DNA of 39,354 nt from an uncultured Dehalococcoidales bacterium (GTDB lineage Bacteria; Chloroflexota; Dehalococcoidia; Dehalococcoidales; CAYFFA01). Shown here piece after piece: positions 1-27,458 of this stretch. The stretch spans positions 1-39,354 of the forward strand of contig CAYFFA010000002.1 of NCBI GenBank assembly GCA_964342375.1, in the 5' to 3' direction. The first letter of the stretch is position 1. Each line of letters starts with the position of its first letter. The notes beneath the pieces are model-generated. The model saw nothing but the letters and a program-made list of their open reading frames with translations. It did not search any database and was not told the DNA's origin. Both the position numbers and the translations under genes were made by a program.

Positions 1-380
1 TGGTGGGCAGCCGGCCCTATTTCGCTGATGTCGAGCTTACCGATGACCATCTGGACGGGTTGGCCCACCGCTACTTAGTAGATCTCAAACACCCCCGCAC
101 TTTTGTGGCGACCCCTGTTGACTCGACCAAAAAAATTTACCTGGAAGACCTGGAAAACAGGTTCCATTATGTAAAAGATTATGCCGAAGAATGGAACGCC
201 AACGGGGTTGTCCTGGAGACGATGCGGTATTGTGATGTTTATGGCTACGATGTGCCCGCGCTCCGAGATTATCTTGATAACGTTGGTTTGCCAAACACCC
301 ACATTGAATGGGACTACAGCGAGGCAGCTCTGGCGCCACTGAGGACAAGAATTCAAGCCTTCGTTGAGGTAGTTGGCTAG
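1..380 (+). CDS. C-terminal part of a 2-hydroxyacyl-CoA dehydratase / benzoyl-CoA reductase B/C-type (HGD-D family) subunit; the 5' end is cut by the window edge
   Basis: Frame 3 is open from the window edge to TAG 378-380. The tail (...ETMRYCDVYGYDVPALRDYLDNVGLP...) resembles HgdB/BcrB-type C-termini as I remember them. It is followed directly by two BcrAD/HgdC-type ATPase genes, so the family call rests partly on context. Confidence 0.5.
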   Translation, partial: VGSRPYFADVELTDDHLDGLAHRYLVDLKHPRTFVATPVDSTKKIYLEDLENRFHYVKDYAEEWNANGVVLETMRYCDVYGYDVPALRDYLDNVGLPNTHIEWDYSEAALAPLRTRIQAFVEVVG

Positions 381-1278
381 GGACTGTCCCACTTATAACC
401 GAAGCAATGCGATAATTCAACAGGAGGGGTTTGCTATCTTTTTTGCTGGGGTTGATATAGGTTCCACCATGACCAAGGTGGTGATTCTGGATGCGGATGG
501 GGCAATGCGTGCCCATATCGCCAGCACCACCGGTGCCGAGCACTGCCGGTTGGCCAACAAAGTAATGGAAGAGGTGTTAAAGCAGGCCAATCTACCATTC
601 GATGAGATAACTTATGTGGTAGCTACCGGCTACGGGAGAATCAATGTCCCCTTTGCTGACCGTCAGGTAACAGAGTTAACCTGCCATGCCAAGGGGGTAG
701 CCAGCATCTTTCCGTCTGTCAAAACAGCTCTTGATATTGGGGGGCAGGACGCTAAAGGGCTCAAGATAAGGGATGGCAGGCTGGTTGATTTCGTCATGAA
801 TGATAAGTGCGCGGCGGGAACAGGCAGGTTTCTCGAAGTTCTAGCTGATACTCTTGGCCTTCAGGTGGAGGAGCTGGGAAGTATTTCCTCAAAATCCGGG
901 GAAAAACTGAACATCAGTAATACCTGTACCGTTTTTGCCCAGATAGAGGTGGTATCCCGCCTCTCTGACGGGATACCGGTGGAAGATATCATAGCCGGAG
1001 TTCACGACGCCATAGCCAGAAAGGCAGTCAATATGATTAAGCGGTTAAAGGTAGAGCCCGAAGTGGTGTTGACCGGAGGCGTAGCTAAGAATACCGGGAT
1101 GGTAGAAGCGGTGAGTGCGAATCTGGGATGTGAGGTTCGCGTGCCTGAGGACCCGCTTCTTAGCGGGGCGCTTGGCGCTGCCATTTTGGGGAAGGACTAT
1201 ACGCTTAAAGCCCAGAAAAGAGGCGAGCCTGTTCAGAGGAAGGAGCGGCGTCTGGAAGAGGCTACCTTCTTCGAATAA
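373..1278 (+). CDS. BcrAD/BadFG/HgdC-family ATPase (electron-activating ASKHA ATPase), copy 1
   Basis: It has the GVDIGSTMTKVV phosphate-1 motif, plus NDKCAAGTGRFLE and NTCTVFA, which carry the two Cys that bridge the [4Fe-4S] cluster in HgdC-type proteins. The stop is TAA. The start is uncertain: TTG 373 gives an N-terminal extension of about 20 aa, while the AGGAGG at 422-427 sits 8 nt before an in-frame ATC at 436. Confidence 0.85.
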   Translation: MARDCPTYNRSNAIIQQEGFAIFFAGVDIGSTMTKVVILDADGAMRAHIASTTGAEHCRLANKVMEEVLKQANLPFDEITYVVATGYGRINVPFADRQVTELTCHAKGVASIFPSVKTALDIGGQDAKGLKIRDGRLVDFVMNDKCAAGTGRFLEVLADTLGLQVEELGSISSKSGEKLNISNTCTVFAQIEVVSRLSDGIPVEDIIAGVHDAIARKAVNMIKRLKVEPEVVLTGGVAKNTGMVEAVSANLGCEVRVPEDPLLSGALGAAILGKDYTLKAQKRGEPVQRKERRLEEATFFE

Positions 1279-1289
1279 GGAGTCTTAGC

Positions 1290-2078
1290 ATGGCTTGGTT
1301 TATGGGCATTGACATTGGTTCAGGAACCAGCAAGGGAGTTATAACCAGTGACGGTAAGCTTTCAGTTCGCCATGTGCTTCCTTCCGGTGTAAATTACCAT
1401 GCAACAGCACAAAGATTAAGAGACGAGCTTCTGGCAAAGGCAGGGCTATCCCCGGAGGATATAGCTTATACTATAGCCACCGGTCACGGTGCGGACAACA
1501 TTTCTTTCAGCGCCGGAAAGATAGATGATATTCGTTGCTGCGCCAGGGGAATAAGCAGCATTTTCCATTCAGTGAGGACGGTCATTGATATACAGGGGAT
1601 GTCCAGTCAGGTAATTCGGCTCAATGATAAGGGGCAGACGCTTAATTTCGTGGTCAGCGAGAAGTGTGCTGCCGGCAGCGGGCGCTTCCTTGATGTCATT
1701 GCGAATATCCTGCGGATAGACCTCAAAGATATTGGGACGCTCTCCCTCAAGTCCAAGAACCCGGTTGCCTTCACTACCGGGTGTGCCGTTTTTGGGGAAT
1801 CAGAGGCTATCTCCAGAGTATCCGAAGGCGCCTCCATAGAAGATATCCTGGCTGGAGTCCATGAAGCACTGGCGAACAAGATTTCCTCTCTCGCAGGTAG
1901 GATTGGTGTGGAGAAGGACTGTGCTATCAGCGGCGGCGGTGCCCTCGATGTTGGACTTGTCAAAAGCGTGGGAGAGAAGCTTGGGATTCAGCTGCTGGTG
2001 CCGCCTCAACCCCAGCTCGTTACCGCCTTGGGTGCTGCCATAATGGCTGAAGAGAGGCATAAGGGCGATACCAAATAA
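1290..2078 (+). CDS. BcrAD/BadFG/HgdC-family ATPase, copy 2 (distinct paralog)
   Basis: The start is ATG with AAGGAG 7 nt upstream. It has GIDIGSGTSKG, SEKCAAGSGRFLD and TGCAVFGESE motifs, so the Cys pair is retained. It lies 11 nt downstream of copy 1. Confidence 0.85.
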   Translation: MAWFMGIDIGSGTSKGVITSDGKLSVRHVLPSGVNYHATAQRLRDELLAKAGLSPEDIAYTIATGHGADNISFSAGKIDDIRCCARGISSIFHSVRTVIDIQGMSSQVIRLNDKGQTLNFVVSEKCAAGSGRFLDVIANILRIDLKDIGTLSLKSKNPVAFTTGCAVFGESEAISRVSEGASIEDILAGVHEALANKISSLAGRIGVEKDCAISGGGALDVGLVKSVGEKLGIQLLVPPQPQLVTALGAAIMAEERHKGDTK

Positions 2079-2122
2079 CTGCACAGAGTACAGACTGTTT
2101 AATTATCTTCAGGAGGTAGGTT

Positions 2123-2557
2123 ATGGCAGAAAAAGAATCATCTATTCTGGATAAGCTCGGGGTCGACATCGGCTTCAAAACCACCCATGCGAAGACCATC
2201 ACCGAAGCTGATATCGACCTTTTTGCCGAGGTCTCCGGGGACTTCAACCCTGTTCATGTGAATGAAGAGTATGCCAAGAAGACCTTCTTCGAAGGTAGGA
2301 TTGCTCATGGGGCATTTTCCTGAGCATTGCTCTCGGCGGCAGTGGCTAAACTCCTTGGTCTGGTTATATTTCTTTCCCAGTCGGTCAAGTTCCTGCAGCC
2401 GGTGCGAATCGGTGATACCATAACAGCTGAAGCCGAGGTAACAGAAACACGCCGGGACAAGGGAATTGTAACCCTGAAAAATATCTGTGTAAATCAAAAT
2501 GGAGAGACAATAGTGGAAGTGGGAGCCGCGATGAGATTCTTTGAGGGGCTCTCTTAG
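2123..2557 (+). pseudogene. MaoC-like (R)-specific enoyl-CoA hydratase (hot-dog fold) interrupted by an in-frame TGA at 2321-2323
   Basis: ORFs 2123-2323 and 2327-2557 are in the same frame. Joined, they give a single MaoC domain of about 143 aa, with the FAEVSGDFNPVHV hydratase motif in the first half and a typical hot-dog C-terminal half. AGGAGG lies upstream of the ATG. Confidence 0.75.
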
Positions 2558-2567
2558 CTCAGGCTTC

Positions 2568-2972
2568 TTATTGCTTAACAGCTATAGCGTCCTCGATGCA
2601 GGAAACTATTTCTTCTTTGGTTGCTGATAAGAATGTGCCGCTAAACCCCATCTCTTTTAGCTTGGGGATATCCGCAGGCGGGAATATCCCTCCGAGGAGG
2701 AATACTGTCCGCTCCTTTATACCTTTCTTCTCAGCCTCCTTGAGCAGCACATCACCAAGGACTAACTCACCACCGCAATAGGTGCTTATCCCAACCACAT
2801 CCACATACTCTTGAACGGCTGTGTCAATTATCTGTTCTGGCCGGGCGTTGCCCATCAAGACCACTTCCATCCCCGCATCCTTGAGCATGCCGGCCACGGT
2901 AAGCAGACCTCTACTGTGGGTCTCTAACGAAAACTGAGCTAATAACACTTTGACTTTACCCTGTTTTGTCAT
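2568..2972 (-). CDS. Cobalamin (B12)-binding small subunit of an acyl-CoA mutase
   Basis: The 134-aa protein has a Rossmann-like B12-binding domain. LETHSRG sits at the DxHxxG position, GISTYCGG at the SxL...GG region, and LLGGIFP is present. It lies 25 nt downstream of the mutase large subunit. Confidence 0.85.
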   Translation of the reverse strand: MTKQGKVKVLLAQFSLETHSRGLLTVAGMLKDAGMEVVLMGNARPEQIIDTAVQEYVDVVGISTYCGGELVLGDVLLKEAEKKGIKERTVFLLGGIFPPADIPKLKEMGFSGTFLSATKEEIVSCIEDAIAVKQ

Positions 2973-2997
2973 AATCTTCTAACCTCTGAGTCATATG

Positions 2998-4758
2998 TTA
3001 TACAAATATGGGCGATTTCCATGTACCAAAGGCTTCGGTAAAGGCTCGGCGCATTTCCCCTTCGGTAACATCGGCTCTGGCGCATTCAACACAGGCCGCC
3101 ATCACGTTATCGCCCCGCTTACACACTTCTACTAAAGCTGTAATAGTATTACTCGCCTTTTCGTTGTCCCTTCGCATCCTTAGCCTGGCTAGCTTGTCTC
3201 GCATCTCTTTGGCTAGATTCTCATCGTATTCTTGAACCCAGACATCAGGCGTCTTCAGGTCAGGGTCTCTGAAATAGTTACGCGCTACTACTTTTATTGT
3301 GCCATCAGCAATCATCTGTTGCTCACGCTCAATATATTTGGTAATCTTACGATGTAGCCAGCCACTGGCGACAACTTCCACTAGGCTACCCATCTTCTCA
3401 ATCTCATCTATTTCCTCAATAATCTTTCGTTCTACATTATTGGTAAGTGCTTCCACATAAAAGGAGCCGCCCAGCGGGTCAACTACCTGAGTAGCTTGCG
3501 TCTCCACTTCGAGAATCTGCTGGTTGCGCAATGACAGGATTGAAGATTCTTCCGATGGGACTGAATAGGCTTCATCATAGCCATCTATATTGAGAGACTG
3601 AGCGCCGCCCAGTACTGCCGCCAGCCCGTGGTAAGAGGCTCTGATAACATTACTCAGCGGCTCTTCCCTTTGCAGTGAGACGCCCGAAGTTTGCATATGG
3701 CATCTCATCCACATGGACCTCGGCTGTTGGGCATTGAATCGATACCTCATTATCCTGTACCAGAGCCGCCTCACTGCCCGAAGACGGGCAATTTCTTCGA
3801 AGAAGTCATTGGCTGGAGCCCAGAAGAAGGCTAGCCTTTGTGCTGCCCAGTCAATATCATGACCTCTTCTGGCCATCTCTTCAAGGGTTTCAATTCCGTT
3901 AGCCACAGCCACTGCCATCTCGGTAATACCTGAGGTTCCCCACTCCCGTAGGTTATAGCCGTTCAAGGTAGCATAATTCCATAACGGCACGTTTTGTCTG
4001 AGGAACTCTATGTTGTCGCACTGTACTCTGAAATCATCTCTGGGCGGTATATATTCCGAAGCGCTACGGACGACACTTTCCATTATGAAATCGTTCTGCA
4101 CACTGCCCGGTAACTTATCCCAGGGGATGCCACGGCGTTCGGCCATTACCAGATACATGGGAAATACTATTGCAGTATTTCTGGGGTAATGGGTAACTAT
4201 GGAAGCGCTTATTTTATCCAGGGGAATATCCCTGTAGATTACTTCCATGTCTTCCACGCAGTCAACCGGAACGCCGACAGTTCCTACTTGCCCCAGGGCT
4301 TCAGGCTCGTCCGAGTCAAACATCTGAACTGTAGCCAGGTCAAGAGCCAGGTTTGTTCCGGTGGCGCCGTGTTCGAGGAGCATCTTAATTCTTTTGTTCA
4401 CGTATTCGGGGGAGCCTGAAGCGGACAATTGCCGAATAGTAAATGATCTGCCCCGGTACATATTGGGATGGACGCCACGGGTAAAGGGTTCCTCCCCGGA
4501 AAAACCTAAATCTCCTTCATAATCAACCTCAGCATTATCAAGCGGGGTATAGAGTAGGCCCCGTGGTATTTCTGAACCTAGAATAGTATGAGGCGTAACC
4601 GTCCAGTTCTCCCGGTCTTTCTCCCGAACCACCGTATTCTTCCACCGCTCCAGATCTGCTTTCATCTTTTCCAGAGCTTTCGGGTTATATAGAGGGATGT
4701 GCTCCCCGGAGGCTAACTTTTCCTCTAAAATTTCCTTTGTGGTTTTTCCATCATTCAT
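2998..4758 (-). CDS. Methylmalonyl-CoA mutase-family large (catalytic, TIM-barrel) subunit; substrate specificity unclear
   Basis: The 586-aa protein carries FTRGVHPNMYRGR..TIRQ, GSVQNDFI..VVR, WNYATLNGY..E.G, QTSGVSL and DPLGGS.YVE blocks. These are collinear with MutB-type mutases. Confidence 0.9.
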   Translation of the reverse strand: MNDGKTTKEILEEKLASGEHIPLYNPKALEKMKADLERWKNTVVREKDRENWTVTPHTILGSEIPRGLLYTPLDNAEVDYEGDLGFSGEEPFTRGVHPNMYRGRSFTIRQLSASGSPEYVNKRIKMLLEHGATGTNLALDLATVQMFDSDEPEALGQVGTVGVPVDCVEDMEVIYRDIPLDKISASIVTHYPRNTAIVFPMYLVMAERRGIPWDKLPGSVQNDFIMESVVRSASEYIPPRDDFRVQCDNIEFLRQNVPLWNYATLNGYNLREWGTSGITEMAVAVANGIETLEEMARRGHDIDWAAQRLAFFWAPANDFFEEIARLRAVRRLWYRIMRYRFNAQQPRSMWMRCHMQTSGVSLQREEPLSNVIRASYHGLAAVLGGAQSLNIDGYDEAYSVPSEESSILSLRNQQILEVETQATQVVDPLGGSFYVEALTNNVERKIIEEIDEIEKMGSLVEVVASGWLHRKITKYIEREQQMIADGTIKVVARNYFRDPDLKTPDVWVQEYDENLAKEMRDKLARLRMRRDNEKASNTITALVEVCKRGDNVMAACVECARADVTEGEMRRAFTEAFGTWKSPIFV

Positions 4759-4793
4759 TTTATTGATTCCTTGTTAGGGTCCTTGGTCGGGTA

Positions 4794-5939
4794 TCAGCTT
4801 TCTTTAATGAGCTGCTTGGCAATAGTCATTCGCTGCATCTCGGATGTACCTTCATAGATTTCTGTAATTTTAGCATCACGGAGATAGCGCTCCAGGGGAT
4901 AGTCCTTAACATAGCCATAACCCCCGTATATCTGGATGGCTTTATTGGTTACTGATCTGGACACTTCTGTTGCAAAAACCTTAGCCATAGATGCTTCTTT
5001 AACAAAGGGTAAGTGTTTGTCCTGGAGATAGGCCGCTCGGTAGGTTAGTAGGCGAGCCGCATCAATCTCAGTGGCCATATCAGCTAACATCCATTGAATT
5101 GCCTGAAAGTTGGCAATAGGTTGGCCGAATTGTTGCCGCTCTTTGGCATGGGCTAAAGCTTTATCAAAAGCCCCCTGGGCGATACCTACTGCCTGGGCGG
5201 CGACGGTAACCCTGCTTGCATCTATGGCATTGAGGGCTATCTTAAATCCTTCCCCCTCGTTGCCCAGACGGTTTTCCTCGGGCACAAAGCAGTCTTCAAA
5301 TAGCAGTTCAGTTGTTGATGAAGCTCGTATGCCCAATTTATTCTCATGCTTGCCTACGGAAAAACCGGGGCTCTCTTTCTCAACAATAAAGGCTGCAACC
5401 CCCTTATGTCTTAGTGACTTATCAAGAGTAGCAAAAACCAATATGATATCAGCCTCGGCTCCATTAGTGATAAATATTTTGGTTCCATTAAGGATATAAC
5501 CATTGTCGTGTCTGGTGGCAGCGGTCTCCAGGGCAGCCGGGTCACTGCCGGCGCCAGCTTCGGTCAGGGCAAAACAGGTTAGTTTCTCTCCCTGCGCTAC
5601 TGGGACCACAATACGCTGCCTTTGCTCTTCGTTGCTAAATACATGCAAAGGCTTTCCGGCAAGTCCCGCGGTGACAAGATAGATGGTAGCCGTGGAAGCA
5701 CAGACTCGGGCAAGCTCTTCTTCAGCAATAACAAAGCTAAGTTCACCTCCACCACTGCCGCCGTATTCCTCTGGGAAAGGAATGCCCATCAGCCCGAGCT
5801 CAGCCATCTTCTTGACACTCTCGGCAGGAAATCTGGCCTCCTCATCTATTTGAGCGGCAATCGGCTCCAACTCCTTGGCGGCGAAATCTTGAACCATCGC
5901 CTTGAGCATTTTCTGCTCTTCAGTTAACGAAAAATTCAT
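4794..5939 (-). CDS. Acyl-CoA dehydrogenase (short/medium-chain type)
   Basis: The 381-aa protein has LTEAGAGSD and QIYGGYGY..DYPLERYLRDAKITEIYEGTSEMQ, which are classic ACAD signatures. Confidence 0.9.
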   Translation of the reverse strand: MNFSLTEEQKMLKAMVQDFAAKELEPIAAQIDEEARFPAESVKKMAELGLMGIPFPEEYGGSGGGELSFVIAEEELARVCASTATIYLVTAGLAGKPLHVFSNEEQRQRIVVPVAQGEKLTCFALTEAGAGSDPAALETAATRHDNGYILNGTKIFITNGAEADIILVFATLDKSLRHKGVAAFIVEKESPGFSVGKHENKLGIRASSTTELLFEDCFVPEENRLGNEGEGFKIALNAIDASRVTVAAQAVGIAQGAFDKALAHAKERQQFGQPIANFQAIQWMLADMATEIDAARLLTYRAAYLQDKHLPFVKEASMAKVFATEVSRSVTNKAIQIYGGYGYVKDYPLERYLRDAKITEIYEGTSEMQRMTIAKQLIKES

Positions 5940-5988
5940 GCTTATCCCCTGTGTTTTTGCTTTTTGTCTCCGGTCTACGGGTTGTGGC

Positions 5989-6957
5989 CTAGTTAAAATG
6001 TTTGCTCAACTGGTCAATAATCTTCAGTGCGGAGGAGTGGGGATTCACTTTTTTCTGGGCTAGATCGTCTACCAGCTTTTCCAAGGAGCCCCCCTCTTTT
6101 TCAAACTCATGGTAACAGTAAAGCTTTACAAAGCTTTCTATAGTCTCAATCAATTCTTCTTTAGCTCTCTCCCTCCTCCGTTTCTCAAGTTCATCGCTGG
6201 AAAACAGGAATTCTTTATGTTTGAGAATTGCCCCAACCAATTCGTCTGTGCCCTTACCCGAGATTGCTTCAGTTAGGATTATACGCGGCTTCCATTCGCT
6301 GTGATGATAAGTCCTCATTCCGAGCATGAGTTCTATTCCCATGGCTACATTATCCGCCCCACCTTTGTCTGCCTTGTTTACGACAAAGATATCAGCCGCT
6401 TCCAGGATACCGGCCTTCATCATTTGCATTTCATCTCCTGCCCCGGGAGACATAGCCAGAATAGCTGTATCCGCAACTTTGGTGATCTCTATTTCCGATT
6501 GTCCTGAGCCTACGGTTTCTACCAGGATAATGTCCTTGCCCATGGCATCCATAATATGAATCATGCCTAGTGTAGCCTTTGCCAGCCCCCCTCTCCAGCC
6601 TCTTGTAGCCATGCTTCTGATAAATACATCCTGATCTGTGCTGTACTGCTGCATCCTCACCCTGTCCCCCAGTATAGCGCCGCCGGTAAAGGGGCTCGTC
6701 GGGTCAACGGCAATAACTCCCACGGTCATACTTGTCTTTCTGAAGGCACCAATTAGGGTATCAACCAGTGTGCTCTTGCCTACACCAGGGGTACCGGTCA
6801 GCCCCACTATATAAGCTTTTCCTGTGTGAGGATAGAGACCGTCCAATTCGTCAATTGCGCTTGGTATTTCGTCTTCCACGTTTCGCATTAACCTGGCAGC
6901 GGCTCGAATGTTGCCTTCCAGTATCTTCTCAGCTAGTTCCATATATTTACCATTCAA
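5989..6957 (-). CDS. meaB: MeaB/ArgK-type G-protein chaperone for B12-dependent mutases
   Basis: It has the GTPGVGKST P-loop, VETVGSGQSE, and NKADK (the NKxD motif). It sits inside the mutase operon. Confidence 0.9.
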   Translation of the reverse strand: MNGKYMELAEKILEGNIRAAARLMRNVEDEIPSAIDELDGLYPHTGKAYIVGLTGTPGVGKSTLVDTLIGAFRKTSMTVGVIAVDPTSPFTGGAILGDRVRMQQYSTDQDVFIRSMATRGWRGGLAKATLGMIHIMDAMGKDIILVETVGSGQSEIEITKVADTAILAMSPGAGDEMQMMKAGILEAADIFVVNKADKGGADNVAMGIELMLGMRTYHHSEWKPRIILTEAISGKGTDELVGAILKHKEFLFSSDELEKRRRERAKEELIETIESFVKLYCYHEFEKEGGSLEKLVDDLAQKKVNPHSSALKIIDQLSKHFN

Positions 6958-7050
6958 GACCTGTTTGACGGTCTTGTCCTCCCTTTTTCTAGTCTATTAT
7001 CTCCTCCACGGGTGTGCTTGGCAGGATTCAAAATCAATCGGCCAGAGCGC

Positions 7051-8607
7051 TCAGGCTTTACCATGTTGTTCTCGCAGTACCCTCTTGAGCACTTTACCCA
7101 TAGGGTTGCGCGGAAGTTTATATATAAAAACGACTGACCTTGGTCTCTTGAAACTGGCTATTCTGGCCCGGCAATACTCCATTATCTCCTCAGGCGCGGC
7201 TGTCTCCCCCTTTTTGATGACCACCACTGCCATGGGCTGCTCACCCCATTCCTCGTCAGGAACACCAATTACCGCTGCCTCCTCAATCTTGGGATGAGAA
7301 TGCAATACCGCTTCTACCTCCTCGGGAGCGATATTTTCCCCTCCTCTGATAATCATGTCCGTTGTCCTGCCCGCCAGGAAGAAGTAACCGTCTTCATCCA
7401 TATAGCCCATATCACCGGTATGGACCCATCCGTCTGTATCGATAGTCTTTTCCGTCTTTTCCTGGTCTTTCCAGTAGCCGCTCATCACCCTGGGTCCTCT
7501 GGCTACAATCTCGCCTGTCTCTCCGGAGGATAGCTCATGACCCTCTTCATCCACTATCTTCATCTCAATATCGGGCATAGGTTTACCAATTGAAGAAAGC
7601 CTCTTCAGCTTCTTTCCCCGTTCCTCTTCGCTTCCATTAAGGACGTGGTCTGCAGGGCTCAGCGTGGTAATAGTTGATGCAGTCTCCGTCTGGCCAAAGG
7701 CATTTATGAAGCTAACGCCGGGAAAGGTATCTAATGCCTTTTTTATGACTTCAAGGGGCATTGGGGCAGCACCGTAGGTTATGACTTTCAGACTGCTCAA
7801 GTCACGCTTACCGAAGTCAGGATGGTCTAACAATTGTTTTAGCATGGTGGGAACCATCATAGCCCGGTTAGCCTTCTCCTTTTCCACCAACTCCATCCAC
7901 GCACCGGGCTCGAACTGGCGTTCCATAAGAAGGGTTCGCCCCCCGTAAATCGCTGCCATCATCGCCTGAATCCCGGCTACATGGTACAGAGGAACGGTAA
8001 TGGTATTTCTCTCCTCAAGCTCCGGGTCCGCCGGGGTTACATTCTCCAGCACATAAATGGAAAAGCTGTTATGAGATAGCATAACCCCTTTGGGAAAGCC
8101 TGTAGTGCCAGCGGTGTACATCAGTATGGTGGTATCATCATCATCGATTTCGGCCACTATTTCCTCAGCAGGGGCTGATGAGAGCATATCTTCATAATAC
8201 AGCATACCATTGCGTTGACCATCTATTGATATGTAATGACTCACCGAGGTCAGGTCGGGTTTTATGGAGTTCGTCAGGTCAATGTACCGTTCACCTGCAA
8301 AGAGAACAGAGGCTTCCGAGCTATTGAGCATGTAGGCGAGCTCATCCCCTTTAGCTCTGAAGTTTAGTGGAACGTGGATAGCTCCAATTTTCGCCACGGC
8401 AAAATAGGCCTCCACACATTGGTTGCAGTTGACTTGCAGCATGGCTACCCTGTCACCATTTTTCACTCCCAGGTTTGATAAGGCGTTAGCCAGCCTGGCC
8501 ACTCGCTCATTTAGCTGGCTGAAGGTAAGCCTTTTTTCTTCAAAGATAATGGCTACCCTATCTGGGCAAATGGAAGTAGATATATTGAGAAAGTCAGCGG
8601 TATTCAT
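7051..8607 (-). CDS. AMP-forming acyl-CoA synthetase/ligase (ANL superfamily)
   Basis: The 518-aa protein has the YTAGTTGFPKGVMLSH AMP-binding motif, GWVHTGDMGYMDEDGYFFLAGR, and a C-terminal GK. GGGGAGG lies upstream of the ATG. Confidence 0.9.
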   Translation of the reverse strand: MNTADFLNISTSICPDRVAIIFEEKRLTFSQLNERVARLANALSNLGVKNGDRVAMLQVNCNQCVEAYFAVAKIGAIHVPLNFRAKGDELAYMLNSSEASVLFAGERYIDLTNSIKPDLTSVSHYISIDGQRNGMLYYEDMLSSAPAEEIVAEIDDDDTTILMYTAGTTGFPKGVMLSHNSFSIYVLENVTPADPELEERNTITVPLYHVAGIQAMMAAIYGGRTLLMERQFEPGAWMELVEKEKANRAMMVPTMLKQLLDHPDFGKRDLSSLKVITYGAAPMPLEVIKKALDTFPGVSFINAFGQTETASTITTLSPADHVLNGSEEERGKKLKRLSSIGKPMPDIEMKIVDEEGHELSSGETGEIVARGPRVMSGYWKDQEKTEKTIDTDGWVHTGDMGYMDEDGYFFLAGRTTDMIIRGGENIAPEEVEAVLHSHPKIEEAAVIGVPDEEWGEQPMAVVVIKKGETAAPEEIMEYCRARIASFKRPRSVVFIYKLPRNPMGKVLKRVLREQHGKA

Positions 8608-8653
8608 TTCACCTCCCCTGTGGCTTAACTTGATTACCTGTAACCAAATGGAT

Positions 8654-8682
8654 ATTTTAGTCTAAACCACTGGCAAAGTCAA
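8654..8682 (-). promoter_or_regulatory. Sigma70-like promoter for the ligase-meaB-acd-mutase operon
   Basis: The minus strand reads TTGACT (8682-8677), a 17-nt spacer, then TAAAAT (8659-8654). This is about 45 nt upstream of the ligase ATG at 8607. It was found by pattern only. Confidence 0.5.
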
Positions 8683-8698
8683 ACGTTGGCTTTTCCTT

Positions 8699-8981
8699 TT
8701 ACCCATTTACCTGATGTAATATCTTCGGCAATGTTTCCCCTGCCCTGGCTCTAATCATAACTGTTGCCTGCTCGTCCATAGGGGTGGAGCTGAGGTTGAT
8801 AATTACCAGTTTAGCTCTGTAATCGACGGCATAGACGGGTATATAGGCAGCCGGATAAACAACCAACGTTGAACCGACGACGATGAAAAGGTCACAGTTA
8901 GATGAGCGGCGAGCATGTCCTCAGCATGTTCTGCGATAACTTGAGAAGGTCCTTGGCAGGCGAGCAGTTGCTCAACGTCAT
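8699..8981 (-). pseudogene. Remnant (C-terminal third only, frame-broken) of a Sir2/CobB-family NAD-dependent deacylase
   Basis: My minus-strand translation of 8920-8699 gives ...SSNCDLFIVVGSTLVVYPAAYIPVYAVDYRAKLVIINLSSTPMDEQATVMIRARAGETLPKILHQVNG*. This is the typical sirtuin (V/I)GTS..V.PA end. It has no start codon, a TGA lies just upstream in frame, and weaker similarity continues in another frame to about 8981. The N-terminal Rossmann/Zn module is absent. Confidence 0.65.
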
Positions 8982-9033
8982 AGATATAAAGAGAGGATAC
9001 TGAAAATATTCTCTTTTGATGAGGAGTTGGAAT

Positions 9034-9747
9034 TCACAAGGAAGCTCCAAGCCTGGCTTCCAGCTCTAAACCTTGTTCCAGACTCATGTCGAGTCCTCTG
9101 GTGATTGCCTGCTTGGCTGCGGTTACAGCAGTCGGGCTGTAGCCTTTGATCCTATTAGCTAACCTCTCAGCTGCTGGCAACAGGTCGGTGCGGGATACGA
9201 CCCGGTTGACCAGTTTCAGGCGGTGCGCCTCCTCTGCCGTAATCCATCTGCTGGTCAGCAACATTTCCGATGCTTCGGCTCTGCCTATCGCCCGGGGCAG
9301 GGTCTGAGTGCCGCCGGCGGCAGGAATTATCCCCAGTCCTACCTCAGGCAAGCCAAATAGAGCATCTTCTGAGGCGAGCCTGATGTCGCAGCACAGGGCT
9401 ATCTCTATGCCTGAACCCAAAACGTAGCCGTGGAGGGCAGCAATGAGCGGCTTGGCAATGCTCAGGAAAAGACCCCAGATATCTCGTTCCCAGCGGACCT
9501 GCCGTGCAATAAAAGGAGACGGAGCGGTGAGAAACTCGGACAGGTCAGCGCCGGCGCAGAAAGCCCTATCTCCGGCACCCCGAAATATAACCGCCCTAAC
9601 CTCAGGGTCATCCTGGATAGCACCCAACACCTGATACAGCTCGTCTCTCATCTGAATGTTGTAGACATTTAAGGCTTGAGGTCGGTTGAGGGTAACATAG
9701 CCTACATCATCCTTCTTCTCGTAGGTAATGACTTCAAAAACGCTCAT
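9034..9747 (-). CDS. Enoyl-CoA hydratase/isomerase (crotonase) family protein with both canonical catalytic Glu positions
   Basis: The 237-aa protein has ITLNRP-like VTLNRPQALN, FCAGADL, GSGIEIALCCD and FGLPEVGLGIIPAAGGTQ. Confidence 0.85.
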   Translation of the reverse strand: MSVFEVITYEKKDDVGYVTLNRPQALNVYNIQMRDELYQVLGAIQDDPEVRAVIFRGAGDRAFCAGADLSEFLTAPSPFIARQVRWERDIWGLFLSIAKPLIAALHGYVLGSGIEIALCCDIRLASEDALFGLPEVGLGIIPAAGGTQTLPRAIGRAEASEMLLTSRWITAEEAHRLKLVNRVVSRTDLLPAAERLANRIKGYSPTAVTAAKQAITRGLDMSLEQGLELEARLGASL

Positions 9748-9791
9748 TGGGATTGTCTATCTACCTTGTCTCCTCGGGCTTTCCCTGGTAA

Positions 9792-10589
9792 CTATTGACC
9801 CTTGAACCGTGGGGGTCTTTTCCGCAGAAAGGCTTCGATGCCTTCCGTCCGGTCCGTAGTTGTGTGCAATAGGAAATAGAGGTCAGCCTCCAGGCGAAGC
9901 CCCTGCTCAAGGGTCAGGTCCAGCCCTTTATTTACCGCTTCCTTGATGTACTTGAGGGCGATAGGTGCCTTATCGGCAAGGGTTCTGGCTAGAGCCTCAG
10001 CTTCAACAGCTAGCTTCTCCTGGCCGACTATCTTGTTGACCAGCCCTATTTCAAATGCCTCCTCAGCACTTATAGTTTGGGCAGCGAGGATTAACTCCAT
10101 GGCTTTACCCTTACCCACAATGCGGGGCAGCCGCTGGGTGCCGCCATCGGTGGGCATGAGTCCCAGCGCCACCTGGGGAGCGCTAAACCGCGCTTGGTGC
10201 GAAGCCAGCCTGATATCACAGCTTAGGGCTAACTCCAGCCCCTGTCCCAGCGCATCTCCATTGATGGCGGCAATAACCGGTTGCTCTATGCTGGCTACAG
10301 CTCTAGCAACACTGTATCTTGCGCTCAACTCCTTCGGCTTTGCTGAGGGAGTCTCAGCTGGACTGCCAGCTTGAATCGATTGCTCTAGCTCGCTCCCACC
10401 ACAGAATGCACTGTATCCAGCACCGGTAATTATGGCCGCATAAATATCATCATCCTGGTTTATCTGATGGCAAACCTCTGCCAGTTCCCTGGCTAGCTGC
10501 TGATTGATGGCATTATTCGATTCAGGTCGGTTGAGGGTTATGTGTGCAACATGGTCCTTATTGGTGTAGATGATAGTAGTATAAGGCAT
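9792..10589 (-). CDS. Crotonase-family protein, variant with Gln at the second catalytic Glu position
   Basis: The 265-aa protein has ITLNRPESNN and GQGLELALSCD, then FSAPQVALGLMPTDGGTQ, with Q139 where hydratases have Glu. GAGGAG lies upstream of the ATG. Confidence 0.85.
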   Translation of the reverse strand: MPYTTIIYTNKDHVAHITLNRPESNNAINQQLARELAEVCHQINQDDDIYAAIITGAGYSAFCGGSELEQSIQAGSPAETPSAKPKELSARYSVARAVASIEQPVIAAINGDALGQGLELALSCDIRLASHQARFSAPQVALGLMPTDGGTQRLPRIVGKGKAMELILAAQTISAEEAFEIGLVNKIVGQEKLAVEAEALARTLADKAPIALKYIKEAVNKGLDLTLEQGLRLEADLYFLLHTTTDRTEGIEAFLRKRPPRFKGQ

Positions 10590-23615: not shown

Positions 23616-23701
23616 GATTTTGGATGGACAATACAGCGCTTGACGTTTGCTCTCCCGCACGGCTAAAGTAGCTTTTAAGTAGGCATAAAGGAGGCGGAAA
23701 A

Positions 23702-24688: not shown

Positions 24689-24792
24689 ATAATTATAAGT
24701 CAGTTATCACTTTACGAAATTTAATTGGAGGTGTTGTGGAGAACCTTAAGCGTATAATCAAAATGATAAAGCCTCTGGATTAAGAAGGCAAG

Positions 24793-24981
24793 ATGGATTA
24801 CTTATATCTATTATATATAGTAGCGGGATTGGCAGTATTAATTTCCCTCATTGCAGTCAGGTTGCTTGTATCTTTATCCTTAGTGATTGTAACTTCGATA
24901 CTATTAGGAAACTATTTGACGAAGAAAGATTATAAAATAATGGGAGGCAGGGATGCCGGAACTCTTGTCCAACATAATTGA
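24793..24981 (+). CDS. Possible small hydrophobic membrane peptide (62 aa) in an AT-rich insert; overlaps the cobT start by 29 nt
   Basis: The ATG is preceded by GAAGG. About 40 consecutive hydrophobic residues (YLYLLYIVAGLAVLISLIAVRLLVSLSLVIVTSILL) follow. The local sequence is markedly AT-rich relative to its flanks. There is no homology evidence. Confidence 0.3.
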   Translation: MDYLYLLYIVAGLAVLISLIAVRLLVSLSLVIVTSILLGNYLTKKDYKIMGGRDAGTLVQHN

Positions 24982-26799: not shown

Positions 26800-26812
26800 C
26801 TGGGAGGGGTAT

Positions 26813-27427: not shown

Positions 27428-27458
27428 AGTCTCAATGCTCGACCATACAGGAGAGAGA

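What the first reader, a model, noticed from the sequence alone, without database searches (positions are those of the whole stretch)
1..10589. One locus joins an ATP-driven Bcr/Hgd-type radical enzyme to a B12-dependent acyl-CoA mutase: candidate undescribed anaerobic acid-degradation pathway
Two halves converge, with stops only 10 nt apart at 2557/2568. The + strand half has an HGD-D subunit tail (more subunits are presumably upstream of the window), two BcrAD-type ATPases and a MaoC hydratase. The - strand half has two crotonases, then a promoter, an acyl-CoA ligase, MeaB, an acyl-CoA dehydrogenase, and the mutase large and small subunits. From established knowledge, ligase + Bcr + crotonase-family Dch/Oah is the logic of the benzoyl-CoA pathway. 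Ligase + MeaB-like chaperone + mutase is the logic of the 2-hydroxyisobutyryl-, isobutyryl- and pivalyl-CoA mutase loci. I know of no characterised pathway that places both radical chemistries in one cluster. A substrate that needs both ring or alpha-hydroxy radical chemistry and carbon-skeleton rearrangement (alicyclic, aromatic or tertiary-branched acids) is a reasonable guess, but only a guess.
Basis: partly seen in the sequence, partly recalled or inferred. Interest (0 to 1): 0.7.

Follow-up and report, generated by a model that had tools for sequence, protein, structure and literature searches.

The report
Radical iron-sulfur enzyme coupled to B12 mutase
An uncultured marine anaerobe carries a gene cluster that joins an ATP-powered iron-sulfur radical enzyme to an unusual vitamin-B12 mutase; the same pairing recurs in at least three bacterial phyla, so it is probably an uncharacterised pathway for breaking down small organic acids, not a chance adjacency.

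Summary
All listed genes are present at the stated coordinates, and the two halves converge with 10 nt between their stops.

Extending the contig leftward gives the full + strand operon: membrane FeS/CCG oxidoreductase, thiolase, DUF35, HGD-D alpha (445 aa), HGD-D beta (390 aa), two BcrAD ATPases and MaoC.

Among 39 species-representative genomes with a mutase at least 64% identical, 26 carry the HGD-D/ATPase genes in the same locus. Nine of the other 13 end at a contig edge. Five lineages encode everything on one strand. One has only MeaB-alpha-beta-ATPase-ATPase-mutase.

Neither enzyme belongs to a characterised subfamily. The mutase has Leu, Arg and Asn at the MCM Tyr89, Arg207 and His244 positions, and ExHxxG in the small subunit. 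The radical enzyme is intermediate between benzoyl-CoA reductase and 2-hydroxyacyl-CoA dehydratase.

Accessory enzymes are short-chain types, so the benzoyl-CoA-pathway analogy is weak.

The closest precedent is the unexplained Bcr/Hgd-like pair in acetone-induced mutase clusters of sulfate reducers.

My best guess, at about 0.35, is a shared tertiary 2-hydroxy-2-alkylacyl-CoA intermediate. The substrate remains unknown.

The parts
1..380 (+). C-terminal 125 codons of the HGD-D beta subunit (390 aa in full; BzdN/HadC-like), cut by the window edge
   Evidence: Pfam PF06050 2.2e-20. The full gene is seen in L002 6419..7591. Closest PDB chain is BzdN 8s02_B, 9e-44. Only 3 of the 6 BzdN cluster cysteines are kept in this lineage.
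373..1278 (+). BcrAD-type ATPase 1 (electron-activating subunit). The TTG start at 373 overlaps the beta-subunit stop.
   Evidence: PF01869 2.2e-62; TIGR00241 272.7 bits. Closest PDB chains are HadI 4eht (235 bits) and MbdQ 9gai_D (229 bits). The 269-aa automatic call (start 469) would remove the GVDIGST motif seen.
1290..2078 (+). BcrAD-type ATPase 2, a paralogue 36% identical to ATPase 1
   Evidence: PF01869 3.3e-46. PDB HadI 219 bits, HgdC 181 bits, MbdQ 178 bits. Identity to ATPase 1.
2123..2557 (+). MaoC-type (R)-specific enoyl-CoA hydratase, interrupted by an in-frame TGA at 2321-2323 (probable pseudogene in this population)
   Evidence: PF01575 1.2e-27. Stop seen in the sequence and in 5 assemblies. 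Homologues are intact, 143 aa, with Gln/Leu/Ile at that column.
2568..2972 (-). Mutase small (B12-binding) subunit with ExHxxG in place of DxHxxG
   Evidence: PF02310 6.6e-16; TIGR00640 79.6 bits. The motif LETHSRG is conserved in the clade; the two most distant mutases in the alignment have LDGHxRG.
2998..4758 (-). Acyl-CoA mutase large subunit of a distinct clade (Leu, Ala, Arg and Asn at MCM-Tyr89, HcmA-Asp117, MCM-Arg207 and MCM-His244)
   Evidence: PF01642 2.7e-149. PDB: HcmA 4r3u 2e-110, human MCM 8e-96. 37.5% and 34.7% identity respectively. Signature is invariant in 44 relatives.
4794..5939 (-). Short-chain (butyryl-CoA-type) acyl-CoA dehydrogenase
   Evidence: Four ACAD Pfam domains. 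Closest PDB chains: C. difficile Bcd 5ol2_C 1.9e-130, A. fermentans Bcd, SCAD. Best NCBIfam hit is AcrC, 512 bits against a cut-off of 640.
5989..6957 (-). MeaB-type G-protein chaperone of the mutase
   Evidence: PF03308 1.5e-86; TIGR00750 328 bits, above its cut-off of 240.75.
7051..8607 (-). AMP-forming acyl-CoA ligase (substrate activation)
   Evidence: PF00501/PF13193. PRK06187 534 bits, above its cut-off of 476. Closest PDB chains: FadD5 and feruloyl-CoA synthetase.
8702..8911 (-).
   Evidence: tblastn against the full-length SIR2 of L014 at the same position: 74% identity, 3e-34. SIR2 Pfam hits in L014 and L031.
9034..9747 (-). Crotonase-family enoyl-CoA hydratase (237 aa)
   Evidence: PF00378 5.5e-57. 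Best NCBIfam hit is short-chain enoyl-CoA hydratase PRK05809, 217.5 bits.
9792..10589 (-). Crotonase-family enoyl-CoA hydratase (265 aa); last gene of the cluster
   Evidence: PF00378 2.2e-64. PRK05809 254.3 bits. The following genes are housekeeping.

Best explanation
The locus is one member of a conserved catabolic module. Its core is an ATP-activated iron-sulfur radical enzyme of the benzoyl-CoA-reductase/2-hydroxyacyl-CoA-dehydratase family (alpha, beta and two ATPase subunits), together with a distinct B12 acyl-CoA mutase (large and small subunits plus MeaB).

The core works with a short-chain beta-oxidation-like set: thiolase + DUF35, an SDR in relatives, an (R)-hydratase or crotonases, a butyryl-CoA-type dehydrogenase and a CoA ligase.

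Shown: the genes, their family placement, their divergence from all characterised subfamilies, and their linkage across phyla.

Inferred: the two radical enzymes act on consecutive intermediates. The most economical shared intermediate is a tertiary 2-hydroxy-2-alkylacyl-CoA.
- The iron-sulfur enzyme interconverts it with a 2-alkyl-2-enoyl-CoA (ketyl-radical dehydration or hydration).
- The mutase interconverts it with a straight-chain 3-hydroxyacyl-CoA (the 2-hydroxyisobutyryl-CoA mutase type of shift).
- Hydratase, SDR and thiolase connect both ends to ordinary acyl-CoA pools.

The net effect would be redox-neutral interconversion of alpha-methyl-branched and linear 3-hydroxyacyl-CoA esters. 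It could feed from branched or tertiary acids, ketone-derived esters, or condensed propionyl-CoA units.
For: Linkage:
- 26 of 39 species-representative loci with a mutase at least 64% identical also carry the HGD-D/ATPase genes. Nine of the 13 without have under 2 kb of flank on the relevant side.
- The arrangement is convergent in Chloroflexota and Syntrophales.
- It is co-directional in Thermodesulfobacteriota, Leptospirales and Syntrophaceae MAGs. L040 is reduced to MeaB-alpha-beta-ATPase-ATPase-mutL-mutS.
- Mutase homologues at 33-58% identity have no such neighbours.

Chemistry:
- The best HMM and PDB match of the alpha subunit is HadB, a 2-hydroxyacyl-CoA dehydratase.
- Both ATPases are closest to the dehydratase activator HadI.
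- The mutase's best solved relative is 2-hydroxyisobutyryl-CoA mutase.
- Conserved partners are thiolase + DUF35, an SDR of the FabG/acetoacetyl-CoA-reductase type, and a PhaJ-like MaoC.
- The dehydrogenase is of the Bcd/SCAD type.
- Every conserved gene gets exactly one step in the proposed sequence.

Precedent:
- In acetone- and ketone-grown sulfate reducers, a 2-hydroxyisobutyryl-CoA mutase, MeaB, an SDR, thiolases, DUF35, a hydratase and two Bcr/Hgd subunits are co-induced.
- In Desulfotomaculum they are encoded together (PMC7888143, PMC8084838, PMC4103992).
- The nearest outgroup of the alpha subunit (50% identical, L056) sits with HMGL-like, thiolase/DUF35, SDR, PF09719 and two ATPases. 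This matches the D. biacutus acetone 'cluster B'.
Against: - The mutase keeps Arg at the MCM-Arg207 position, which in MCM binds the substrate's free carboxylate. It lacks HcmA-Asp117, which binds the hydroxyl (residue roles from my own knowledge; positions).
- The alpha subunit has an invariant Arg where BzdO has His131. Two active-site arginines could mean a dicarboxylic substrate.
- 21 of 26 relatives keep all six cysteines of the BzdN double-cubane cluster. All have two distinct ATPase genes. Both are benzoyl-CoA-reductase traits that suggest a two-electron reduction, not a redox-neutral dehydration.
- No 2-hydroxyacyl-CoA dehydratase is known to take a tertiary alcohol.
- No experiment bears on these proteins.
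Confidence: 0.35

Rival explanations
1. A benzoyl-CoA-reductase-like enzyme performs an ATP-driven two-electron reduction of an aromatic, heteroaromatic or conjugated acyl-CoA, for example one released by side-chain beta-oxidation of phenylpropanoids. The mutase then rearranges a dicarboxylic product of ring cleavage.
For: - Four-subunit Bzd-like architecture with two different ATPases.
- The beta subunit is closest to BzdN and keeps six cluster cysteines in 21 of 26 relatives.
- Equivalents of BzdO Trp46, Glu65 and the three cysteines are conserved in alpha (roles from PMC11971306).
- Arg is retained at MCM-Arg207, and there is an invariant Arg in alpha.
- The ligase resembles feruloyl-CoA synthetase and 4-coumarate ligase.
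- The ACAD + ECH + SDR + thiolase/DUF35 set resembles the Bbs-type beta-oxidation set.
Against: - All bzd/bcr equivalog scores are far below their cut-offs: bzdN 160.7 against 453.8, bzdO 68.6 against 448.6, bzdQ 172.5 against 380.2.
- BzdO His131 is replaced by Arg.
- The window and five relatives have lost three of the six beta cysteines yet keep the cluster.
- No Dch/Had/Oah-type models are among the best hits of the crotonases.
- The ACAD is of the Bcd/SCAD type.
- The seven-gene minimal operon is hard to explain if the mutase acts many steps downstream.
Confidence: 0.2
2. The pathway handles a C5-C6 dicarboxylic CoA ester, such as 2-hydroxyglutaryl/glutaconyl, citramalyl/mesaconyl, or methylsuccinyl/glutaryl. 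The iron-sulfur enzyme acts as an alpha-hydroxy-dicarboxyl-CoA dehydratase. The mutase shifts the thioester on the same carboxylated skeleton.
For: - Arg at the carboxylate-binding position of MCM is invariant in the mutase clade.
- There is an invariant Arg in the alpha-subunit active-site region.
- Known family members include 2-hydroxyglutaryl-CoA dehydratase.
- MaoC hydratases serve mesaconyl/itaconyl-CoA; RipB/Ich gives a weak hit of 41 bits.
- The ACAD also scores 315 bits on the non-decarboxylating glutaryl-CoA dehydrogenase model.
Against: - No decarboxylase, carboxyltransferase, lyase or CoA-transferase is conserved in the clusters.
- Tyr89, the second carboxylate ligand of MCM, is Leu.
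- The accessory enzymes look like monocarboxylic short-chain types.
- The double-hot-dog MaoC of the Syntrophales clusters matches no NCBIfam model.
Confidence: 0.15
3. The iron-sulfur/ATPase system is not a pathway enzyme. It is an ATP-driven low-potential reductant that keeps the mutase's cobalamin active, analogous to the reductive activators of corrinoid enzymes.
For: - The minimal operon contains only MeaB, the four iron-sulfur/ATPase genes and the mutase.
- ATP-coupled electron activation is the family's defining ability (PMC11971306).
- A divergent HGD-D pair also sits directly upstream of the mutase in L033.
Against: - The alpha subunit keeps the three cysteines and the Glu of the substrate-facing [4Fe-4S]-OH2 site shared by HadB and BzdO.
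- The sister clade occurs with thiolase/DUF35/SDR but no mutase within 10 kb.
- The thiolase/DUF35/SDR/hydratase genes travel with the iron-sulfur genes.
- I know of no precedent.
Confidence: 0.05
4. The adjacency of the two halves is accidental, and each half has an unrelated role.
For: - In this window the halves are on opposite strands.
- In one relative (L011/L006) they are about 7.5 kb apart, separated by recA, recX and rny.
- Two informative relatives (L028 and L046) lack the iron-sulfur genes nearby.
Against: - Linkage holds in 26 of about 30 informative loci from at least three phyla. It holds in two different orientations, including single-strand operons.
- Linkage is absent in the more distant mutase homologues.
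Confidence: 0.03

Closest known systems
Acetone/ketone-induced gene clusters of sulfate reducers (Desulfotomaculum arcticum and D. geothermicum; Desulfococcus biacutus clusters A and B; Desulfosarcina cetonica). Sources: PMC8084838, PMC7888143, PMC4103992.
   Same: [quoted passage not shown] In D. arcticum the Bcr/Hgd genes (04026-27) lie three genes from the mutase (04030-31). The nearest outgroup of our alpha subunit (L056, 50% identical) has the PF09719, HMGL-like and thiolase context of D. biacutus cluster B.
   Different: No thiamine-diphosphate (acetolactate-synthase-like) ketone-activating enzyme, carboxyltransferase or Na+-decarboxylase genes occur in the window or its upstream extension. 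Orthology of the mutase and the Bcr/Hgd subunits to the acetone-induced proteins could not be tested. The role of the Bcr/Hgd proteins is unknown in those organisms too.
Class I benzoyl-CoA reductase of the Bzd/Mbd type (BzdNOPQ, PDB 8s02; MbdONQP, PDB 9g87)
   Same: Two HGD-D subunits of about 445 and 390 aa plus two different BcrAD ATPases. The beta subunit is closest to BzdN. Six double-cubane cysteines are kept in most relatives. The alpha subunit has equivalents of BzdO Cys95, Cys128, Cys380, Glu65 and Trp46.
   Different: Scores are far below the equivalog cut-offs. BzdO His131 is replaced by Arg. The window lineage keeps only three beta cysteines. There is no dienoyl-CoA hydratase or ring hydrolase context. 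The genes are always linked to a B12 mutase.
(R)-2-hydroxyisocaproyl-CoA dehydratase HadBC with its activator HadI (PDB 3o3m, 4eht)
   Same: HadB is the best HMM and PDB match of the alpha subunit. HadI is the best PDB match of both ATPases. The three-cysteine beta pattern of the window matches HadC. An ACAD of the Bcd/AcdB type is nearby.
   Different: There are two paralogous ATPase genes instead of one homodimeric activator. Most relatives have a six-cysteine beta subunit. There is no CoA-transferase or 2-hydroxyacid dehydrogenase. HadB scores 92 bits against a cut-off of 750 and HadC 158 against 700.
2-Hydroxyisobutyryl-CoA mutase operons (HcmAB or RcmAB with MeaH and the ligase HCL); HcmA is PDB 4r3u
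   Same: Split large and small subunits, a G-protein chaperone and a dedicated CoA ligase in one operon. HcmA is the closest solved structure. A hydrophobic residue sits at the Tyr89 position.
   Different: Only 37.5% identity. Ala instead of Asp117, Arg instead of Gln at MCM position 207, Asn instead of His244, and ExHxxG. Those operons contain no iron-sulfur radical enzyme.
Thiolase/DUF35 pairs (archaeal acetoacetyl-CoA thiolase complex; benzoylsuccinyl-CoA thiolase BbsAB)
   Same: The thiolase scores 374 bits on the Methanothermococcus thiolase model and 211 bits on BbsB. The DUF35 protein scores 42 bits on BbsA.
   Different: All scores are below the equivalog cut-offs. No HMG-CoA synthase or Bbs partners are present.

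Membership tests
Class I benzoyl-CoA reductase (Bzd type) | Four subunits: two HGD-D catalytic subunits plus two non-identical BcrAD ATPases | tested here: met
   L001/L002 gene tables and Pfam. The two ATPases are 36% identical to each other.
Class I benzoyl-CoA reductase (Bzd type) | Six cysteines in the BzdN-like subunit ligating a double-cubane [8Fe-9S] cluster (Cys36/73/100/263/293/327; PMC11971306) | tested here: not met
   The window protein has His, Cys, Cys, Leu, His, Cys at these columns. Five relatives also keep only three cysteines. 21 of 26 relatives keep all six.
Class I benzoyl-CoA reductase (Bzd type) | BzdO active site: Cys95/128/380, Glu65, His131 and Trp46 | tested here: inconclusive
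   The cysteines, Glu and Trp are conserved. His131 is an invariant Arg. MbdO, a true reductase, also differs at positions 46 and 131 in my alignment.
Class I benzoyl-CoA reductase (Bzd type) | Scores above the NCBIfam equivalog cut-offs for the bzdN/O/P/Q or bcrA-D models | tested here: not met
   bzdN 160.7 against 453.8; bzdO 68.6 against 448.6; bzdQ 172.5 against 380.2; bcrC 146.5 against 421.
Class I benzoyl-CoA reductase (Bzd type) | ATP-dependent two-electron reduction of an aroyl-CoA | not testable with these tools
   Needs an anoxic enzyme assay.
2-Hydroxyacyl-CoA dehydratase (HAD: Had/Hgd/Lcd/Fld) | Alpha/beta heterodimer with single-cubane clusters held by three cysteines in each subunit | tested here: met
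   Met for the window protein. Not met by the 21 relatives with a six-cysteine beta subunit.
2-Hydroxyacyl-CoA dehydratase (HAD: Had/Hgd/Lcd/Fld) | One activator gene encoding a homodimeric ATPase | tested here: not met
   Two paralogous ATPase genes occur in the window and in nearly all relatives.
2-Hydroxyacyl-CoA dehydratase (HAD: Had/Hgd/Lcd/Fld) | Equivalog-level similarity to a characterised dehydratase | tested here: not met
   HadB 92.3 bits against a cut-off of 750; HadC 158.4 against 700.
Methylmalonyl-CoA mutase | Tyr89, Arg207 and His244 in the large subunit and DxHxxG in the B12 domain (P. shermanii numbering; residue roles from my own knowledge) | tested here: not met
   Leu, Arg, Asn and ExHxxG. 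PRK09426 scores 412 bits against a cut-off of 876.
2-Hydroxyisobutyryl-CoA mutase (HcmAB) | Ile90, Asp117 and Gln at the MCM-Arg207 position (from my own knowledge of the HcmA structure papers) | tested here: not met
   Leu, Ala and Arg in the HMMER alignment to 4r3u_A. 37.5% identity.
Isobutyryl-CoA mutase (IcmAB/IcmF) | Phe and Gln at the MCM Tyr89 and Arg207 positions (from my own knowledge) | tested here: not met
   Leu and Arg. The IcmF model scores 180 bits against a cut-off of 1500.
RcmAB-type (R)-specific 2-hydroxyisobutyryl-CoA mutase, including the D. biacutus enzyme | Sequence clustering with RcmA | not tested
   No RcmA or D. biacutus sequence could be fetched. The relevant papers (PMC4551191, PMC5244315) are not held.
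Anaerobic acetone/ketone degradation cluster of sulfate reducers | A thiamine-diphosphate-dependent ketone-activating enzyme (acetolactate-synthase-like) encoded with the mutase | tested here: not met
   No TPP-enzyme domain was found in the cluster, the 8.5 kb upstream of it, or the rest of the window.
Anaerobic acetone/ketone degradation cluster of sulfate reducers | Mutase + MeaB + thiolase/DUF35 + hydratase + two Bcr/Hgd subunits together | tested here: met
   compared with the gene lists in PMC8084838.

The most novel reading that the evidence does not exclude
The module is the missing enzymology for redox-neutral linearisation of alpha-methyl-branched acyl-CoAs.

Proposed steps:
1. Thiolase/DUF35 condenses two propionyl-CoA to 2-methyl-3-oxopentanoyl-CoA.
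2. SDR and a hydratase give 2-methylpent-2-enoyl-CoA.
3. The ATP-activated iron-sulfur enzyme adds water at C-alpha to give 2-hydroxy-2-methylpentanoyl-CoA.
4. The mutase shifts the thioester onto the methyl group to give 3-hydroxyhexanoyl-CoA.
5. That product is cleaved to acetyl-CoA and butyryl-CoA.

This carbon mapping reproduces the 13C labelling reported for Smithella propionica (de Bok 2001, recalled from the abstract). The enzymes of that 'six-carbon' propionate dismutation were still unidentified in 2026 (PMC13248872).

If correct, it would give marine and subsurface Dehalococcoidia and Syntrophales such as FEN-1087 a propionate route without carboxylation or succinate oxidation.
Probability: 0.1. 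Interest if true: 0.9.

Novelty: new variant of a known kind. Interest (0 to 1): 0.66.

Why it matters
The benzoyl-CoA-reductase/2-hydroxyacyl-CoA-dehydratase family and the B12 acyl-CoA mutases are the two main ways anaerobes use radicals to do otherwise impossible chemistry on CoA esters. An obligate genomic pairing of the two has not been explained.

- **Evolutionary intermediate.** This clade includes members with a reductase-type double-cubane beta subunit and members that have lost it, all in an aliphatic short-chain context. That makes it a natural intermediate between 'Birch reductases' and dehydratases.
- **Acetone degraders.** The pairing gives a concrete, testable hypothesis for the unexplained Bcr/Hgd proteins of acetone-degrading sulfate reducers.
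- **New mutase signature.** It defines a mutase clade with Leu89, Asn244 and ExHxxG.
- **Ecology.** The cluster occurs in abundant uncultured anaerobes of aquifers, fens, the subseafloor and oxygen-poor sea water. The pathway may therefore matter for the turnover of fermentation acids or branched and tertiary compounds there.
- **Propionate dismutation.** It offers candidate genes for the unresolved six-carbon propionate dismutation pathway.

Tried and rejected
1. **Selenocysteine or recoding at the MaoC TGA.** Rejected. Homologues have Gln/Leu/Ile and never Cys at that column.
2. **A promoter in the 8608-9033 gap.** The one sigma-70-like match is no more than chance. The gap is a SIR2 gene remnant.
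3. **A link to Smithella.** No Smithella-named protein or genome appeared in four searches. I therefore keep propionate dismutation only as a low-probability reading.
4. **Naming the nearest outgroups of the alpha subunit.** The representatives search plus cluster look-up gave only generic MAG names.
5. **Taxon names for the window's own proteins.** None are on record. The Chloroflexota/Dehalococcoidia assignment rests on the names of the closest homologues.
6. **Published active-site signatures for RcmA, HcmA, PCM and ECM.** The papers are not held. Residue roles are therefore given from my own knowledge.
7. **Literature searches for a described Bcr-plus-mutase cluster.** Searches on Dehalococcoidia, Syntrophales and MeaB found nothing. 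The acetone papers surfaced only through a broader query.
8. **The limonene-enrichment paper (PMC12583861).** Unrelated.
9. **Bona fide methylmalonyl-CoA mutase reading.** Rejected on the signature residues and the cut-off.

Full report
**1. Observation**

+ strand:
- Last 125 codons of an HGD-D subunit (3..380).
- Two BcrAD/BadFG ATPases (373..1278 and 1290..2078).
- A MaoC hydratase (2123..2557).

- strand:
- B12-binding small subunit (2568..2972).
- Mutase large subunit (2998..4758).
- Acyl-CoA dehydrogenase (4794..5939).
- MeaB (5989..6957).
- AMP-forming ligase (7051..8607).
- Two crotonase-family genes (9034..9747 and 9792..10589).

The convergent stops are 10 nt apart. The next genes are an HhH-GPD glycosylase, TrmO and an HMGL-like synthase, so the cluster ends at 10589.

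- MaoC has an in-frame TGA at 2321-2323. It is present in all five independent metagenome assemblies that carry this locus. In 19 homologues that column is Gln, Leu or Ile, so it is a nonsense mutation and not a selenocysteine codon.
- The 'promoter' gap contains the last 70 codons of a SIR2-family gene (8702..8911, - strand). This remnant is 74% identical to a full-length SIR2 at the same place in a relative. The only sigma-70-like match there is what shuffled sequence gives.

**2. Extension of the contig**

An exact-protein look-up found the same locus on marine metagenome contigs, including a Tara Oceans scaffold. Upstream of the window the + strand operon reads as follows:
- a 716-aa membrane FeS/CCG (HdrD-like) oxidoreductase,
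- thiolase (395 aa),
- a DUF35 zinc-ribbon/OB protein (136 aa),
- HGD-D alpha (445 aa),
- HGD-D beta (390 aa),
- the two ATPases and MaoC.

The radical enzyme therefore has the four-subunit layout of a Bzd-type class I benzoyl-CoA reductase.

**3. Are the halves linked?**

The mutase large subunit has more than 120 relatives at 75-98% identity, named Chloroflexota, Dehalococcoidales or Syntrophales where named at all. Three of them were looked up.
- Two Syntrophales MAGs and one unnamed 167-kb contig show MeaB-mutL-mutS converging on MaoC-ATPase-ATPase-beta-alpha-DUF35-thiolase-SDR.
- One groundwater Chloroflexi MAG has the halves about 7.5 kb apart, with recA, recX and rny between them.

A scan of one genome per species returned 44 loci. 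I mapped 15 reference proteins onto them with tblastn.
- 39 loci have a mutase at least 64% identical.
- 26 of these hold at least two of the four radical-enzyme genes (at least 50% identity).
- 9 of the 13 without have under 2 kb of sequence on the relevant side.
- The informative exceptions are four:
  - L011, the separated case. Its contig also carries an alpha subunit (P0131).
  - L028.
  - L046.
  - L033, where a different HGD-D pair sits directly upstream of the mutase.
- Mutase homologues at 33-58% identity have no such neighbours.

In MAGs labelled Thermodesulfobacteriota, Leptospirales and Syntrophaceae, all genes are on one strand. L040 is reduced to MeaB-alpha-beta-ATPase-ATPase-mutL-mutS.

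Linkage across at least three phyla, in two orientations, and down to a seven-gene core is strong evidence for functional coupling.

**4. The mutase**

The closest solved structures are 2-hydroxyisobutyryl-CoA mutase HcmA (2e-110, 37.5% identity) and human MCM (8e-96, 34.7%). The MCM equivalog model scores 412 bits against a cut-off of 876.

Signature positions, from the HMMER alignments:

| Reference position | This mutase | Note |
|---|---|---|
| MCM Tyr89 (marked by the Y89F entry 5req) | Leu | |
| HcmA Asp117 | Ala | |
| MCM Arg207 | Arg | retained |
| MCM His244 | Asn | motif NGYNLRE |

- These residues are invariant in 44 relatives. That includes the 55-59% outgroup. MCM-like and ICM/HCM-like mutases in the same data keep His.
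- The small subunit has ExHxxG where the two most distant mutases in the alignment have DxHxxG.
- By signature it is not MCM, HCM or ICM. The functional roles of these residues are from my own knowledge of the literature.

**5. The iron-sulfur enzyme**

| Subunit | Best matches |
|---|---|
| Alpha | HadB (92 bits against cut-off 750; PDB 3o3m_A 2.5e-17), then BzdO and MbdO |
| Beta | BzdN (8s02_B 9e-44), then HadC and the double-cubane protein |
| Both ATPases | The dehydratase activator HadI; MbdQ is almost equal for the first ATPase |

Fuchs et al. 2025 (PMC11971306) give a structural discriminator.
- BzdN holds an [8Fe-9S] double cubane through Cys36/73/100/263/293/327.
- Dehydratases have lost it and keep three cysteines.
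- BzdO holds [4Fe-4S]-OH2 through Cys95/128/380, next to Glu65, His131 and Trp46.

My alignments show the following.
- Beta: 21 of 26 relatives keep all six cysteines. The window protein (His, Cys, Cys, Leu, His, Cys) and five Chloroflexota relatives keep only the three dehydratase-type ones.
- Alpha: the three cysteines, Glu65 and Trp46 are conserved throughout. His131 is an invariant Arg.

The clade is therefore intermediate between reductases and dehydratases. The window lineage has moved to the dehydratase-like cluster pattern while keeping the whole gene cluster.

The family is small. The search of 1.84 billion representatives found 1033 with E up to 0.001 and 117 with E up to 1e-30.

**6. 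Accessory genes**

- The dehydrogenase is closest to the butyryl-CoA dehydrogenases of C. difficile and A. fermentans and to SCAD.
- Both crotonases score best on short-chain enoyl-CoA hydratase models.
- The thiolase is of the archaeal/DUF35-partnered type and distantly BbsB-like.
- The ligase is generic, FadD5/feruloyl-CoA-synthetase-like.
- Relatives add an SDR of the FabG/acetoacetyl-CoA-reductase type. Syntrophales also add a second MaoC, a ferredoxin-domain protein and a PhaC-like hydrolase.

This is the toolkit of short-chain (R)- and (S)-3-hydroxyacyl-CoA metabolism, not of ring cleavage.

**7. Literature**

No paper describing this cluster in Dehalococcoidia or Syntrophales was found. 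A broader query led to the anaerobic acetone/ketone pathway of sulfate reducers.

- Acetone is converted to 2-hydroxyisobutyryl-CoA, and a B12 mutase turns that into 3-hydroxybutyryl-CoA.
- In Desulfotomaculum arcticum these are encoded three genes from the mutase (PMC7888143, PMC8084838, PMC4103992).
- The nearest outgroup of our alpha subunit (50% identity, L056) lies with HMGL-like, thiolase/DUF35, SDR, a PF09719 protein and two ATPases. This matches D. biacutus 'cluster B'.
- The pairing is therefore on record but unexplained.
- Our locus lacks the thiamine-dependent ketone-activating enzyme.

**8. Mechanism**

Shown: gene content, family placement, divergence from characterised subfamilies, and conserved linkage.

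Inferred: the two radical enzymes handle consecutive intermediates.

- The only class of CoA esters known to be handled by relatives of both enzymes is 2-hydroxyacyl-CoA carrying a 2-alkyl branch.
- HCM-type mutases interconvert 2-hydroxy-2-methylacyl-CoA and 3-hydroxyacyl-CoA.
- HAD-type enzymes interconvert 2-hydroxyacyl-CoA and 2-enoyl-CoA.
- With hydratase, SDR and thiolase/DUF35 at both ends, every conserved gene has one step. The sequence is redox-neutral.

I hold this at about 0.35, for three reasons.
- The mutase keeps the carboxylate-binding Arg of MCM and lacks the hydroxyl-binding Asp of HcmA.
- The alpha subunit has its own invariant Arg.
- Most relatives have reductase-type traits: the double-cubane cysteines and two ATPases.

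Rivals:
- A true reductase acting on an aromatic or conjugated ester (0.2).
- A dicarboxylic C5-C6 pathway (0.15).
- ATP-driven reactivation of the mutase (0.05).
- Chance adjacency (0.03).

**9. Novel reading**

Applied to two condensed propionyl-CoA units, the proposed sequence yields acetyl-CoA plus butyryl-CoA. Its carbon mapping matches the labelling reported for Smithella propionica (recalled from the abstract of de Bok 2001; the paper is not held). The enzymes of that dismutation are still unknown (PMC8892533, PMC13248872).

No Smithella-named sequence appeared in any search. One carrier, L010, is from the FEN-1087 family, said to be close to Smithellaceae. I give this reading 0.1.

**10. 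Verdict**

The coupling is real and uncharacterised, but the benzoyl-CoA analogy and the claim of no precedent are not.
- The finding is a new variant of known kinds of enzyme systems.
- It is worth experimental follow-up: interest 0.66.

Noticed in passing
window 2321-2323 (within MaoC, 2123..2557, + strand): In-frame TGA splits the MaoC hydratase into 66-aa and 71-76-aa pieces. The same stop is in all five independent assemblies of this locus. Homologues are intact, with Gln/Leu/Ile at that column, so it is a fixed nonsense mutation and not Sec.
   Followed up: yes
window 8702..8911, - strand: C-terminal 70 codons of a SIR2-family deacylase, 74% identical to a full-length SIR2 that sits between the crotonase and the ligase in L014 (and next to the crotonases in L031). 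Sirtuins regulate acyl-CoA synthetases in other bacteria. Here only a remnant is left.
   Followed up: yes
window 1..380 and L002 6419..7591 (beta subunit), compared with 26 related loci: The window lineage (His/Leu/His) and five Chloroflexota relatives (Asp/Ser-Thr/Ser) have replaced three of the six double-cubane cysteines that the other 21 relatives keep. This looks like a reductase-type to dehydratase-type cluster loss within one orthologous clade, possibly twice.
   Followed up: partly
window 21611..28031, + strand: A run of cobamide nucleotide-loop and salvage genes lies about 17 kb from the B12 mutase: CbiB/CobD, a class I/II aminotransferase (CobD-like), an FMN-dependent dehydrogenase, CobT, CobS, CobC-like phosphatase and CobU.
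   Followed up: partly
L046 1592..7382 and L047 7376..15035: More distant members of the same Asn244 mutase clade (65% and 58% identity) are not with HGD-D genes. They sit in amino-sugar modification clusters: PglD-like hexapeptide N-acyltransferase, DegT aminotransferases, WbqC, PIG-L deacetylase and a glycosyltransferase. This suggests the mutase there supplies an unusual acyl-CoA for glycan N-acylation.
   Followed up: partly
L007 20268..21761; same gene in L009 and L010: A 599-642-aa alpha/beta hydrolase next to the Syntrophales clusters gives a sub-threshold match to class III PHA synthase PhaC (87 bits, cut-off 365). It lies beside a FabG/PhaB-like SDR, a thiolase and a PhaJ-like MaoC.
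   Followed up: no
L002 923..3073 (upstream of the window); also in L015, L022, L023, L027, L032: A 716-aa protein with an N-terminal membrane domain (QmoC-like stretch) and HdrD-like Fer4/CCG domains leads the + strand operon in several Chloroflexota. It resembles the ETF:quinone FeS oxidoreductases of syntrophic fatty-acid oxidisers. No etfAB gene is nearby.
   Followed up: partly
window 373..469: Automatic gene calls start ATPase 1 at 469 (269 aa). That would delete the GVDIGST phosphate-binding motif. The TTG at 373, overlapping the beta-subunit stop by 8 nt, gives 301 aa and fits the 277-292 aa of relatives.
   Followed up: partly
L033 7605..9973: A Chloroflexota MAG has a different, distantly related HGD-D pair (33% and 26% identity) directly upstream of a 69%-identical mutase. 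This is a second, independent HGD-D/mutase pairing.
   Followed up: no
L030 1..1218: A second mutase large subunit of ICM/HCM type (Gln at MCM position 207, His244 kept) lies immediately upstream of MeaB-ACAD-mutase in a groundwater Chloroflexi MAG.
   Followed up: no
window 16492..18551, - strand: A radical SAM/SPASM protein (339 aa) overlaps by 4 nt a DUF1464 protein (347 aa), followed by an AhpC/TSA-thioredoxin-like protein and a DsbD-type membrane protein. This is a possible maturation or redox module of unknown function.
   Followed up: no
L006 1733..4530: In the groundwater Chloroflexi relative, a four-subunit 2-oxoacid:ferredoxin oxidoreductase (delta ferredoxin, alpha, beta, gamma) directly precedes the crotonase-crotonase-ligase-MeaB-ACAD-mutase operon. 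It is a possible source of reduced ferredoxin for the ATPases or a feeder of acyl-CoA.
   Followed up: no
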